From: Hormiphora californensis
Lineage: Eukaryota; Animalia; Ctenophora
Length of the DNA: 64,000 bases
Direction of reading: 5' to 3'
NCBI GenBank assembly: GCA_020137815.1
Contig: CM035353.1
Span: 5,766,001-5,830,000 of the forward strand
Shown here: in pieces, positions 6,201 to 62,106 of the stretch
How the letters are laid out: the number at the start of each line of letters is the position of its first letter
How positions within the stretch are numbered: position 1 is the first letter of the stretch
Notes under the pieces: model-generated
Told to the model about the DNA's origin: nothing
Databases searched by the model: none
Seen by the model: only the letters and a program-made list of their open reading frames with translations
Translations under genes and position numbers: made by a program

Positions 6201-9200
6201 CCGATACATACAATATGTTCTCATTTTCCCACAAACCAAAACAGTTCATCATATCCCAATGCAATCCCGTTCTAAACAGAGATATTTAGAGATCAACATC
6301 CCACATAACACACCATCCCATGGCAACACCCCACATAACACCCCCCCCCCCCCCTGACAGCTAAACAAGTAAAACCCCAGCTAAACAAATAACACCCCCT
6401 CGACCCATCCCATGACAGCACCCCACATAACACCATCCTCCCAATAACACCCCCCCCTGACAGCTAAACAAGTAAAACCCCAGCTAAACAAATAACACCC
6501 CCTCGACCCATCCCATGACAACACCATCCTCCCAATAACACCCCCTTCCTGACAGCTAAACAAGCAACACCGAGGAAAGGATCTGAATGTCCTGCCTGTG
6601 TGGAGGAAGAACATCACTGGTCAGGGGGTCGTGGTGGCCATATTGGATGATGGAGTGGAAAGGAACCATCCTGATATCATAGATAATTATGTGAGTACTG
6701 ACATACTGACATCATAGATATTAGATAATTATGTGAGTACTGACATAGGTACTGGCATACTGATATCATATTATGTACTGCTATTGCATCATAGATTTCG
6801 ATTTGTGTAGGGAAATGGTTTTTTGCCGGATATATTTTCCTCTTTCTAAACATCTAGATGTATTTCGGGGTATCTATACATTGATCAATTAATCACAAAA
6901 AACTAATTTTAGCTCGAATTAGTTAGTGATGTACAGTCGGACCCCGATTTAGTGGCATCCTCGGGGGAAAAAAATCCTGCCACTAAATCGGGGTGCCACT
7001 AAATCGGGGTCAAGTAATGTTAATTTCCTATATCGGGGGAAGATTATCCTGCCACTAAATCGGGGTGCCACTAAATCGGGGGCCACTAAATCGGGGTCCG
7101 ACTGTACCATTTTAGATCCATGGTTTATTTCCTATATATCATACAGTTACCACACTGTATAACAATAATCCTGCATCCTCAAATTAGCATCACGATATTA
7201 TCCACTTGTTGGCTTTATTAAACGCAATTACCGATTGAGACTTTTTGGCCTGTTTACAATCACTTGCTATAAACCGCTGAGAGAGAGAGAGAAAAAGAGA
7301 GAGAAAAAGAGAGGGAGAGAAGGAGAGAGGAGCTATATGGAGCAGTAGACAATGTGATCTATCAGACAAGGGGCCGGAGAAGGGGTCTACTGTGTGCTAA
7401 AAGCCGGAAAAGGTCCCTCCCCACAATATGTATGGGGGGGTGGGGTTATTTAATTCGCCCCCCGGGGGGGGAAAAAAAAGGGGGGGGGGGGGGGAAAAAG
7501 AGAAAAAGGGGGGGGGGGAAAAAAAAAAGAAGGGGGGGGAAGGGGGAAGGAAAAAACCAAAAACCCCCTTCCCCCGGGGAAAAAAAAAAAACCAAAACCC
7601 CCCCCAAAAAAAAAACCAAAAAAAACCGGGTTGGGGGGGGCCGGGCCCCCCGGGGGGGGGAAAAAAAAAAAAAAAAAAAAAAAAAAAAGGGGGAAAAAAA
7701 GGAAAACAAAGGAAAAAGGGGGAAAAACAAAAAAGGGGGGGAAAAAAAAAAGGGGGGGGGGTTTTTTTTTTAAAAAAAAAAAAAAGGAAAAAAAAAGGGA
7801 AATTTTAAAAAATTTTTAAATTTGGTTTTTTCCCAAAAAACCCCAAAAAAAAAAAAATTTTTTAATTTTTTCCCTTTTTAAAAAAAATTGGGGGAATCGG
7901 TTTTTTAAAATTTTAAAGGGGGGGGCCCCCCAAAAAACCCCGGGGAAAAAAAAAAAAAAAAATTTTTTGTTAAAAGGGAAAAAAGGGGGGCCCCCTTTTA
8001 AAAATTTTAAAAAAAAAGGGGGAAAAAAGGGGGGAAAGGGGGGGAAAAAATAAAAAAAGGGGGGGGGAAAGGGGTTTTTGGGGGGGGAAAAAAGGGGGGG
8101 AAATTTTTTTCTAAAAAATTAAACAAAAACCAAATTTTTTTTTTTCCCCCCCCCTTTTTTTCCCCCCCTCCCCCCCTCCTTTTTTTTCCCCCCCAAAAAA
8201 ATTTAAAAAGGGGGGGGGGGGGGAAAAAAAAAAACCCAAAGGGAAAAGGGGGGGGAAAAAGGAAAAAGGGGGAAGGGGAAAAAAATTTTTTAAAAAAGGG
8301 GGAAAAAAAGGGGGGGGAAAAAAAAGGGGGCTAGAAAATTAAAAAAAAAAAAAAGGGGGGTTTTTTTCCCCCCCCTTTTTCCCCCCGGGGGGTTTTCCCC
8401 CGGGGGGGGGGGAAAAAAAAAATTTTTGGGGGGGGAAATTTTTAAACCCCCGGGGGAAAAAGCACCCCAAAAATTTCCCCCCCAAAAAAACCCCCTTTTG
8501 TTTTTTTAAACCCCCCCCCCCCTTTGGGGTTCCCAAATTTTTTTTTGGGGGGGGGGAAATTAAAAAAAGGGTTTTAAAAAACCCAAATTTTTTTTTTTTA
8601 GGTTTTTTAAAAAAAAAATTTTTGGGGGGGGGGGGGCCCTTTAAAAAAATTTTTTTGGGGGTTTTTTTTTTTTTTTTGGGGGGGGGAAAACCCCCCAAAA
8701 AACCCCCGGGGGAAAAAAAAAACCCCCCCGGGGGGGGAAAAAACCCCCCCCCCCCCCAAAAAAAAAAAAATTTTTTCCCAAAAAAATCCGGGGGGCCCCC
8801 CAAATTTTTTTTTTGGGTTTTTTCCCGGGGGAAAAACCCCAAAATTTCTCTCTCTCTAGTCTCCCTATCTCTCTCTCTCTCTCTCTATCTCTCTCTATCT
8901 ATCTCATCATCCCAGGAGGAAAGTTGTAGTTGGGATTTTCTCGATAACGATAGTGACCCCACGCCAGTTGTAACAGATAGTGATCAAAATGTCAAGTAAG
9001 TTTCACGGGGTTTAATCATACCATGACCATATGTGGTCATCTGATGCCCGATAGTTTTTGGGCTATGAAAAACTATCGGACATTGAATTCAACTCTTGGT
9101 TTTATCTTGTCCTCCCCTTCAGTCACGGAACAAGATGTGCAGGGCAGGTGGCCGCTGGGCGAAACCGATATTGTGGTCTAGGGGTTGCCTTCAATGCACG

Positions 9201-60952: not shown

Positions 60953-62106
60953 TCATTTTGGCCTGACCACGATGAAGATGCCTATCATGCTCATTAACAC
61001 GGCCATGCCAGTTACGACAATAATCGTCTCCCAGGCAACCACGGTATAGACAAAATACCAAGTCATTGCTGCTAGGTTCATTACGCAAGACATCACGCAG
61101 AAAATAACCTGAAAATATGGGGGTGTTTAGAGCTGCTGGAATACGTATATTATGCGGACCAGATCGAGATAAAAAATATTACTGAAACGGGAGTAATTAA
61201 TTGATTATTTATATCAACTTACTTCACTGCGTTCTGAAAATAGGCGTCCAATGATGGTGCTGAGAGCTGTGTTGTTCCCCGCATCGCTGACCCCATAGGC
61301 CACTGCCACAGCAATAGTAAGAGCAAGGGTCGGCGGGTCAGTGTTCTCTCCCGACTAGGTTAGGGAGGAGGAGGTTAGGAAAGAGGAGAGGTTAGGGAAG
61401 AGAGGTTAGGGAAGAGGAGAGGTTAGGAAGAGGAGAGGTTAGGAAGAGGAGAGGTTAGGGAAGAGGAGAGGTTAGGGAAGAGGAGAGGGTAGGGGAGAGA
61501 GGTTAGGGAAGAGAGGTTAGGGAAGAGGAGAGGGTAGGGGAGAGAGGTTAGGGAAAAGGAGAGGTTAGGGAAGAGGAGAGGTTAGGGAAGAGAGGTTAGG
61601 GAAGAGAGGTTAGGGAAGAGATGTTATGGAAGATGAGAGGTTAGGGAAGAGAGGTTAGGGAACGAGGAGAGGGTAAGGAGGAGAGGTTTATAGCTATATA
61701 TAGGGAAGATGAGGTTATGGAGGAGAGGTGAGGGAGGAGAGTTTAGGGAGGAGAGGTTAGGGAGGAGAGGTTAGGGAGGAGAGTTTAGGGAGGAGAGGTT
61801 AGGGAGGAGAGGTTAGGAAGGAGAGGTTATTATGGAGGAGAGGTTAGGATATCTGTACAATATCTAGCATGGTATACAAGGTACATTTTGTGTTTTTTTC
61901 TCCCTCTCTCTCTCTCTCTCTCTTACCCCAGGAATAGTCATGTAGGTGAGGAGAAGTGAGATGATTGCTAGACAGCCCGCCAGAATGGTCACCAGGACAT
62001 AACCAAATACGGTTATTAGTCGGCCCAGCACAATGGATCCCACCAGCTCTCCAACTCCAACCATACATCCAAAGAGGAGCAGGTGCTCACCAATCATTGT
62101 TGGAAT
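60953..62106 (-). CDS. UNC-93-like / MFSD11-like MFS membrane protein, last three coding exons (5' part unresolved)
   Basis: Phase-0 exons 62106-61927 (LLFGCMVGVGELVGSIVLG..TYMTIPG), 61354-61223 (VAYGVSDAGNNTALSTIIGRLFSERSE), 61108-60953 (VIFCVMSCV..IFIVVRPK stop). Hydrophobic helices and GxGExxG / GxxDxxxNT patterns resemble UNC-93/MFSD11 C-terminal half. Confidence 0.75.
61357..61848. repeat. 14-17 bp purine-rich minisatellite (GAGAGGTTAGGGAA..)n
   Basis: On the transcribed minus strand it reads (TCCCTAACCTCTCCTC)n and ends in the acceptor CCTAACCTAG of the 61354 exon. Confidence 0.92.

What the first reader, a model, noticed from the sequence alone, without database searches (positions are those of the whole stretch)
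6300..61848. Window-wide pattern: intronic tandem repeats are built from splice signals and anchored at exon edges
Seen: in two unrelated genes, at about nine exon borders, the adjacent intron consists of tandem copies of the border itself. Acceptors are duplicated at 6556 and 12418, donor regions at 6690, 9208, 15098 and 17403. Satellites with sense-strand CTAAC end at the acceptors of 27440 and 61354, and a third such array lies at 30050-30790. Known: CTRAC is the branch-point core and GTGAGT the donor consensus. Inference: this genome has a process that grows introns by slippage or duplication nucleated at splice sites (possibly transcription/splicing-coupled, e.g. pausing or R-loops), creating arrays of decoy sites. 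This is the best candidate here for an undescribed system.
Basis: partly seen in the sequence, partly recalled or inferred. Interest (0 to 1): 0.85.

Follow-up and report, generated by a model that had tools for sequence, protein, structure and literature searches.

The report
Comb-jelly exon-edge repeats ("mirages")
In one protease gene of a comb jelly, five or six exon edges are copied, with their splice signals, head to tail into the neighbouring intron, and copy number differs between alleles and likely greatly between animals; such repeats are already known from lancelets and chickens and are likely a tolerated by-product of DNA duplication, not a new splicing system.

Summary
The window is ctenophore DNA (Pleurobrachia or close). 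Five borders of a furin-like convertase gene (6555, 6690, 12417, 15098, 17403), and loosely 9208, are copied into the adjacent intron. Short-read contigs cover three of them; one haplotype lacks the 6690 copy, and the 41-nt donor unit at 17403 (two copies here) has about 1000-fold flank depth in a second sample, likely a large array. The pattern is not window-wide: 6 of 40 convertase borders versus 0 of 50 in four other genes. Arrays lie near borders about 2-3 times more often than random placement (p 0.003-0.05; spanning a border p 0.008-0.15), in a window picked for the pattern. The CTAAC satellites at 27439 and 61355 are intronic, not border copies; the 30050 array is at no modelled border and reads as an acceptor on + and a donor on -. 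Their C-rich transcripts argue against R-loops. This is the known 'mirage' (amphioxus) or 'exon stuttering' (chicken) class; this scan already reported it in other windows of this genome and in other animals. Best reading: DNA-level duplication, perhaps between very divergent alleles, kept when the extra copy is intronic. No RNA evidence was available.

The parts
3259..32396 (+). furin-like proprotein convertase gene, 21 modelled exons; last exon and the junction at 19820 uncertain
6294..6571 (+). acceptor mirage of exon 6556-6690: about 100-nt unit, three copies, each with about 16 nt of exon start
   Evidence: exact contigs
6680..6770 (+). donor mirage at 6690 (42-nt shift) plus an older decayed copy; absent from the other haplotype
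   Evidence: (joint 6708-6768)
9200..9287 (+). partial donor echo at 9208: second GTGAG at +33 and a 19-nt intronic duplicate
12328..12425 (+). acceptor mirage at 12417, 29-nt unit, 3.4 copies, 8 nt of exon
15081..15203 (+). donor mirage at 15098, 31-nt unit, 2-3 decaying copies with disrupted donors
17370..17451 (+). donor mirage at 17403, 41-nt unit (34 exon + 7 intron), two copies here, apparently far more in sample S2
20834..27423 (+). 16-nt C-rich satellite with CTAAC, purely intronic unit, ends 16 nt before acceptor 27439; 5' half garbled
27881..28037 (+). 6-nt microsatellite starting 4 nt into the intron, continuing the donor GTAAGA
30050..30789 (.). 35-nt array, 21 copies; acceptor-like on +, donor-like on -; resembles the acceptor at 28073; at no modelled border
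61357..61849 (-). 14-nt pyrimidine + CTAAC array filling most of a 572-nt intron, ends 3 nt before acceptor 61355

Best explanation
Short pieces of DNA that straddle an exon edge have been duplicated into the adjacent intron, likely by misaligned repair or exchange at the DNA level (probably often between the two very different alleles, which match well only in exons), and they likely persist because a copy that lands in the intron leaves the exon intact. Step 1 (shown): duplications exist and are present in some haplotypes and not others. Step 2 (inferred): they start at short pre-existing repeats; at 6690 a 10-nt match between exon end and intron start, itself a decayed older copy, flanks the event. 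Step 3 (partly shown): a two-copy seed can expand like any minisatellite, to a large array in sample S2 at 17403. Step 4 (inferred): selection removes the same events when the extra copy falls in an exon and removes AG-rich arrays beside acceptors, which explains the one-sided placement and the CTAAC orientation; mis-splicing at decoys would mostly give early stops and would be cleared by nonsense-mediated decay. No splicing-coupled machinery is needed.
For: Exact short-read contigs over the arrays and a haplotype that skips 59 nt at 6708-6768. Depth over 17379-17420 of 268,000-358,000 in X5 and 276,000-323,000 in X6 against about 150-440 in flanking exons, but only 137 and 2,867 against 42 and about 400-600 in X3 and X4; a loose end gives the head-to-tail junction. 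Control: a common MITE has the same depth ratio, about 12,000-15,000, in X1, X3 and X5 (my arithmetic). Copies point into the intron at 4 of 90 borders and into the exon at 0 of 90; 0.6% of exon positions versus 9-19% of intron-interior positions lie in a local duplicate. The two alleles of sample S1 differ at 16 sites in about 220 exon bases, all silent (two share a codon), and intron haplotypes differ by indels. The 17403 copy differs from its exon at 3 of 3 exonic sites in third codon positions, two silent. 24 of 25 decoy sites give a premature stop. The convertase also holds 12 of the 16 long introns, most foldback elements and most microsatellites. Same class described as not disturbing splicing in amphioxus (PMC3087553, PMC3902484, passages).
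Against: The allele-exchange step is not shown: no contig listed carries the copy's variant at 17402 in the exon, and 3 of 3 third-position changes is one copy (1 in 27 by chance), one of them non-silent; the 15098 copy has two amino-acid-changing differences. The border excess (2-3 fold) needs some bias beyond uniform duplication, and its source is untested. Four decoys score as well as or better than the real site on a matrix trained on these 45 introns, so harmlessness is inferred, not shown. Summed contig depth is not copy number, short variant contigs inflate it, and the amplified unit could lie elsewhere in the S2 genome.
Confidence: 0.55

Rival explanations
1. No border bias at all: local duplications are common everywhere in this genome, introns are short, so many events touch a border by geometry, and selection only removes those that break exons.
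For: 29 of 45 introns are 250 nt or shorter. Per base, borders (4 of 90) are less often in a duplicate than intron interiors (9-19%). Spanning events are not significant when 9208 is dropped (p 0.12) or when no transposon mask is used (6 versus 3.7, p 0.15). The window was chosen for the pattern, and the event list and mask were set by hand. TRF marks 13% of the related Hormiphora genome as repeats (PMC8527503, passages).
Against: The near-border count exceeds expectation in all 8 variants (p 0.003-0.05); in the convertase alone 6 spanning against 1.85 expected (p 0.004).
Confidence: 0.22
2. One reading: transcription or splicing (pausing, R-loops, RNA-templated repair) makes splice sites mutation hot spots that grow introns.
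For: 2-3 fold excess near borders; all three large arrays carry CTAAC on the sense strand; the scan's other notes on this genome report the same pattern (unchecked notes, not independent evidence).
Against: Four other genes, centrin included, have 0 of 50 copied borders. The large arrays give C-rich RNA, which disfavours R-loops (recalled). Units contain exon plus intron, as in DNA or pre-mRNA; no copy with an exon-exon join was seen by inspection. CTRAC is a weak branch motif here: 6 of 45 acceptors, three of them the arrays themselves, against 6.7% background.
Confidence: 0.13
3. The arrays are selected regulatory elements (decoy sites, branch-point sponges or tuners of expression through nonsense-mediated decay).
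For: Several decoys keep strong signals; the 14-mer array builds a 490-nt AG-free branch and pyrimidine zone.
Against: Presence-absence polymorphism and large copy differences within the species; decaying copies with broken donors at 15098 and 6756-6780; each array is unrelated to the others.
Confidence: 0.05
4. Assembly artefact of an error-prone long-read assembly.
For: 7400-8850 is homopolymer noise; 20400-20900 holds a garbled second copy of the exon at 19687 (score 114, shuffles at most 48) and the satellite decays toward its 5' end; about 15 residues present in both orthologs are missing at that junction.
Against: Contigs match the 6555 and 6690 arrays exactly, also in a second sample at 6702-6900, and cover the 17403 array.
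Confidence: 0.03

Closest known systems
Amphioxus 'mirage' minisatellites (Adh3, globins BflGb6 and BflGb9, troponin C, PGBD5); PMC3087553 and PMC3902484, passages read
   Same: Tandem copies spanning a 5' or 3' exon-intron boundary, units of 10-160 bp, many keeping AG/GT, copy number differing between haplotypes, mechanism stated as unclear.
   Different: Here in a ctenophore; five or six in one gene; one unit apparently amplified far more in a second sample. RNA and somatic instability, examined in amphioxus, were not testable here.
Chicken dot-chromosome 'sequence stuttering' (exon and intron stuttering); PMC12954441, abstract, sections 7 and 9 and first part of section 8 read
   Same: Lateral exon parts with their splice site copied into the adjacent intron (1-44 copies), purely intronic arrays beside them, strong length variation among individuals.
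   Different: The chicken cases sit on GC-rich dot chromosomes and are tied to GC or G4 and recombination; this window is about 41% GC and full of foldback transposons. The paper does not mention mirages or ctenophores.
Human internal tandem repeats at exon-intron boundaries; PMC2812944, passages read
   Same: About 30-bp minisatellite units at boundaries, variable copy number.
   Different: There they lie in segmental duplications and some create new introns; no new intron is shown here.
Minisatellite-filled short introns of the mouse pseudoautosomal region; PMC13050634, passages read
   Same: Introns largely occupied by tandem repeats, attributed to frequent recombination and unequal crossover.
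   Different: Units there are not described as copies of splice junctions in the passages read.

Membership tests
amphioxus-type mirage | tandem unit spans an exon-intron boundary | tested here: met
   five borders; not met for the arrays at 20834, 30050 and 61357
amphioxus-type mirage | minisatellite unit size (10-160 bp) | tested here: met
   29, 31, 41, 42 and about 100 nt
amphioxus-type mirage | many but not all copies keep AG/GT signals | tested here: met
   broken in the 15098 copies
amphioxus-type mirage | copy number differs between haplotypes | tested here: met
   joint 6708-6768; depth contrast at 17403
amphioxus-type mirage | regular splicing is undisturbed | not testable with these tools
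   no RNA holder listed; indirect only: frame colinear with orthologs and silent-only exon polymorphism
amphioxus-type mirage | somatic length instability | not testable with these tools
   only assembled contigs were served
chicken exon stuttering | exon edge copied into the proximal intron | tested here: met
chicken exon stuttering | large within-species length variation | tested here: inconclusive
   depth about 1000-fold over flanks in S2, but contigs give neither array length nor place
chicken exon stuttering | GC-rich, transposon-poor chromosomal setting | tested here: not met
   GC about 0.41; many foldback elements
intron gain by tandem duplication | the duplicated copies are spliced out as a new intron absent from orthologs | not testable with these tools
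   only ortholog proteins were available; no ortholog DNA found
interstitial telomere repeat | runs of TTAGGG (ctenophore telomere motif recalled) | tested here: not met
   single TTAGGG words inside longer units: 19 in the 14-mer array, 7 in the 35-mer, 2 in the 16-mer

The most novel reading that the evidence does not exclude
In hyper-heterozygous animals exons are the only islands where homologous chromosomes match, so exchange or repair that starts in an exon slips at its edge and writes a copy of the other allele's exon end into the intron; such two-copy seeds can grow to hundreds of copies within a species. This one DNA-level process would unite amphioxus mirages, chicken exon stuttering and these ctenophore arrays as a general engine of intron growth.
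Probability: 0.3. Interest if true: 0.6.

Novelty: new member of a known kind. Interest (0 to 1): 0.3.

Why it matters
The class is known but its mechanism is stated as unclear in both the amphioxus and the chicken papers. This locus shows several stages side by side (decayed copy, polymorphic two-copy seed, apparent large expansion in another animal) in a genome with about 7% exon difference between alleles, which makes the allele-exchange idea testable with phased reads. In practice such arrays confuse gene models and assemblies. It is not a new splicing system.

Tried and rejected
No whole genome is held, so the genome-wide test could not be run. No RNA holder listed; the one presumed RNA run had nothing on the exons of 5560-7270: no evidence either way on junction use. 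A scan of metagenome contigs for the 17403 unit found 0 matches, and one with an alignment of two ortholog proteins found 378 pattern matches and no confirmed relative: no orthologous introns to compare. The per-base comparison was not used as the enrichment test because long arrays inflate interior counts; the event test replaced it, with events inside hand-masked transposons (24 clusters plus the 40980-45901 array), microsatellites and 7400-8845 left out except in the last variant. The test whether the 17403 copy matches another allele was inconclusive. The 35-mer as a coding remnant of the cytoplasmic tail gave only a marginal match to one ortholog (score 46) and was not accepted. Telomere origin of the CTAAC arrays was considered and not supported; one search was seen as a listing only. 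R-loop nucleation rejected on strand composition. Searches found no paper on such repeats in ctenophores and no genome-wide test of border enrichment; most subscription papers are not in the library and no supplements were read.

Full report
Source and genes. The large exon at 35463-37790 is 90% identical to a EukProt protein labelled Pleurobrachia bachei, and a convertase exon is 84% identical to a Bolinopsis microptera furin-like protein, so the window is ctenophore DNA, Pleurobrachia or a close relative. No whole genome is held. I modelled five genes by hand with ortholog guidance: a furin-like convertase (+, 21 exons, open 728-residue frame), a kringle/LDLa G-protein-coupled receptor (-, 19 exons, open frame), centrin (one frameshift, probably an assembly error) and two small minus-strand genes. 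That gives 45 GT-AG introns, median 174 nt, 29 of them 250 nt or shorter. The convertase aligns without gaps to two orthologs at all six borders in question. Its last exon has no ortholog support, and about 15 residues are missing at the junction 19820-27440. A probable further gene in 1-1800 was not modelled.

The observation. Five convertase borders are copied into the adjacent intron: acceptors 6555 and 12417, donors 6690, 15098 and 17403. At 9208 the duplicate is mainly intronic. A strict ungapped test finds 4 of 90 borders copied toward the intron and 0 of 90 toward the exon; 15098 needs gaps. All cases are in one gene (6 of 40 against 0 of 50, p 0.006). The three CTAAC arrays are a different thing. 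The 16-mer and the 14-mer end 16 and 3 nt before an acceptor, but their units are purely intronic and nearly free of AG and GT on the sense strand. The 35-mer at 30050-30789 is 1.5 kb from any modelled border, lies between inverted ends at about 28575 and 32282, scores as a strong acceptor on + (15.3, median real 9.8) and as a donor on - (8.9, median 7.8), and of 180 border comparisons best matches the acceptor at 28073 (44; 0 of 300 shuffles reach it, maximum 43). Its origin stays open.

Real or artefact. Contigs of short-read runs match 6238-6352, 6388-6520 and 6671-6807 with no difference, and a second sample matches 6702-6900. The other haplotype of sample S1 skips 59 nt at 6708-6768, which removes the donor copy, and another S1 contig differs by 61 gap positions over 5560-6454. 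So these arrays are real and polymorphic. Only two stretches could be laid (5560-7270 and 17190-17800); 9208, 12417, 15098 and the three large arrays were not checked in reads. 7400-8850 and the 5' half of the 16-mer satellite are garbled, so that array's length and its donor are unreliable.

An apparent expansion. Over the 41-nt donor unit 17370-17410, summed contig depth is 268,000-358,000 in X5 and 276,000-323,000 in X6 (sample S2) against about 150-440 in the flanking exons; in S1 it is 137 against 42 (X3) and 2,867 against about 400-600 (X4). Loose ends before 17370 give the head-to-tail junction. A common MITE shows the same depth ratio in X1, X3 and X5 (about 12,000-15,000, my arithmetic), so X5 is not unevenly covered. 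X5 is also about 14-fold over 6546-6603, against under 3-fold in S1. The tool warns that summed depth is no copy number, and many short variant contigs inflate it, so I read this as tens to over a thousand copies, place unknown.

More than chance. I listed local duplications with one rule, masked transposons by hand from self-BLAST and inspection, collapsed arrays to one unit and compared with random placement. Of 15 intronic events, 9 lie within 16 nt of a border (4.65 expected, p 0.016) and 6 span one (2.8 expected, p 0.036; 0.12 without 9208). Eight variants give p 0.003-0.05 and 0.008-0.15; without a mask the spanning excess vanishes (6 against 3.7 of 46 events). The window was selected for this pattern and the list is hand-curated, so these values are optimistic. 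The fair statement is a 2-3 fold excess near borders in one repeat-rich gene.

Mechanism. The anatomy fits DNA-level events. At 6690 a 10-nt match between exon end and intron start flanks the duplication and is itself part of an older decayed copy. The two S1 alleles differ at 16 sites in about 220 exon bases, all silent when two changes in one codon are read together, and six S2 differences are silent too (22 exonic sites taken from tables that were cut; 5599, where all runs differ from the assembly, left out). With introns differing by indels, exons are the best-matched stretches between homologs, which makes misaligned exchange at exon edges plausible. I took that idea from earlier scan notes. 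The 17403 copy differs from its exon at three sites, all third codon positions (two silent), as another allele would, but this is one copy, the 15098 copy has two replacement changes, and one search did not show the matching allele. Selection explains the one-sided pattern: 0.6% of exon positions lie in a local duplicate against 9-19% of intron interiors; 24 of 25 decoy sites would give a premature stop; the reverse orientation of the CTAAC arrays would place 130-340 AG dinucleotides by the acceptor. No RNA holder was listed, so splice use is untested.

What is known. Tandem repeats that span exon-intron boundaries are 'mirages' in amphioxus, with haplotype differences, retained AG/GT and no splicing defect (PMC3087553, PMC3902484; passages). 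Chicken dot chromosomes show 'exon stuttering' and 'intron stuttering' with large individual variation (PMC12954441; abstract, sections 7, 9, first part of 8). Human boundary minisatellites are in PMC2812944 (passages). The Hormiphora genome paper reports 13% tandem repeats and high heterozygosity but, in the passages seen, nothing on splice-site repeats (PMC8527503). Searches found no ctenophore report and no genome-wide enrichment test; supplements were not read. The scan has noted the same class in several other windows of this genome and in brachiopod, urchin, skate and other DNA (unchecked notes).

Verdict. What this window adds is a ctenophore case with direct polymorphism and a likely large expansion of one donor unit in another animal. 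New member of a known kind; interest 0.3.

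Noticed in passing
window 17370-17451; runs X5, X6: The two-copy donor unit has about 1000-fold flank depth in sample S2 only; 6546-6661 is also raised 8-14 fold in X5.
   Followed up: partly
window 6556-6660 and 17273-17387: Two alleles of one sample differ at about 7% of exon bases, all silent: very high synonymous diversity.
   Followed up: partly
window 40980-45901: A 5-kb array of about 475-nt composite units starts 6 nt after a donor of the GPCR gene and fills most of that intron; origin not examined.
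   Followed up: no
window 9306-10873, 15823-17085, 18192-19532, 30808-31717, 34549-35366, 57102-60654: Many near-perfect foldback (palindromic) elements of 0.8-3.5 kb, some nested.
   Followed up: no
window 6932-7106, 13617-13732, 15326-15497, 38060-38190: A very abundant MITE family with 16-nt internal repeats; the copy at 38190 starts right at a donor, another 40 nt after one; some haplotypes lack the 6932 copy (joint 6929-7103).
   Followed up: partly
window 5403-5549, 8868-8904, 27881-28037, 28177-28260: TC microsatellites sit 10-40 nt before acceptors and AG-rich ones directly after donors, as if seeded by the pyrimidine tract and by GTAAGA/GTTAGA.
   Followed up: no
window 7400-8850 and 19820-24300: Garbled assembly, including a degraded second copy of the exon at 19687 near 20400-20900; a short convertase exon is probably hidden there.
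   Followed up: partly
window 28174-32396: The cytoplasmic tail of the convertase (about 90 residues in orthologs) has no clear match; the 27-mer and 35-mer arrays at 29932-30789 could belong to an unmodelled terminal or nested exon.
   Followed up: partly
window 52540-53029: Intergenic 23-nt array with a short internal inversion at about 52850-52900.
   Followed up: no
window 35463-48988 (-): A 1953-residue receptor with kringle and LDLa domains and a 7-transmembrane end, from a ctenophore-expanded family; its short introns carry no border copies.
   Followed up: no
window 259-938 and 55913-56592: A 680-nt dispersed repeat, 98% identical, a recent mobile element copy.
   Followed up: no
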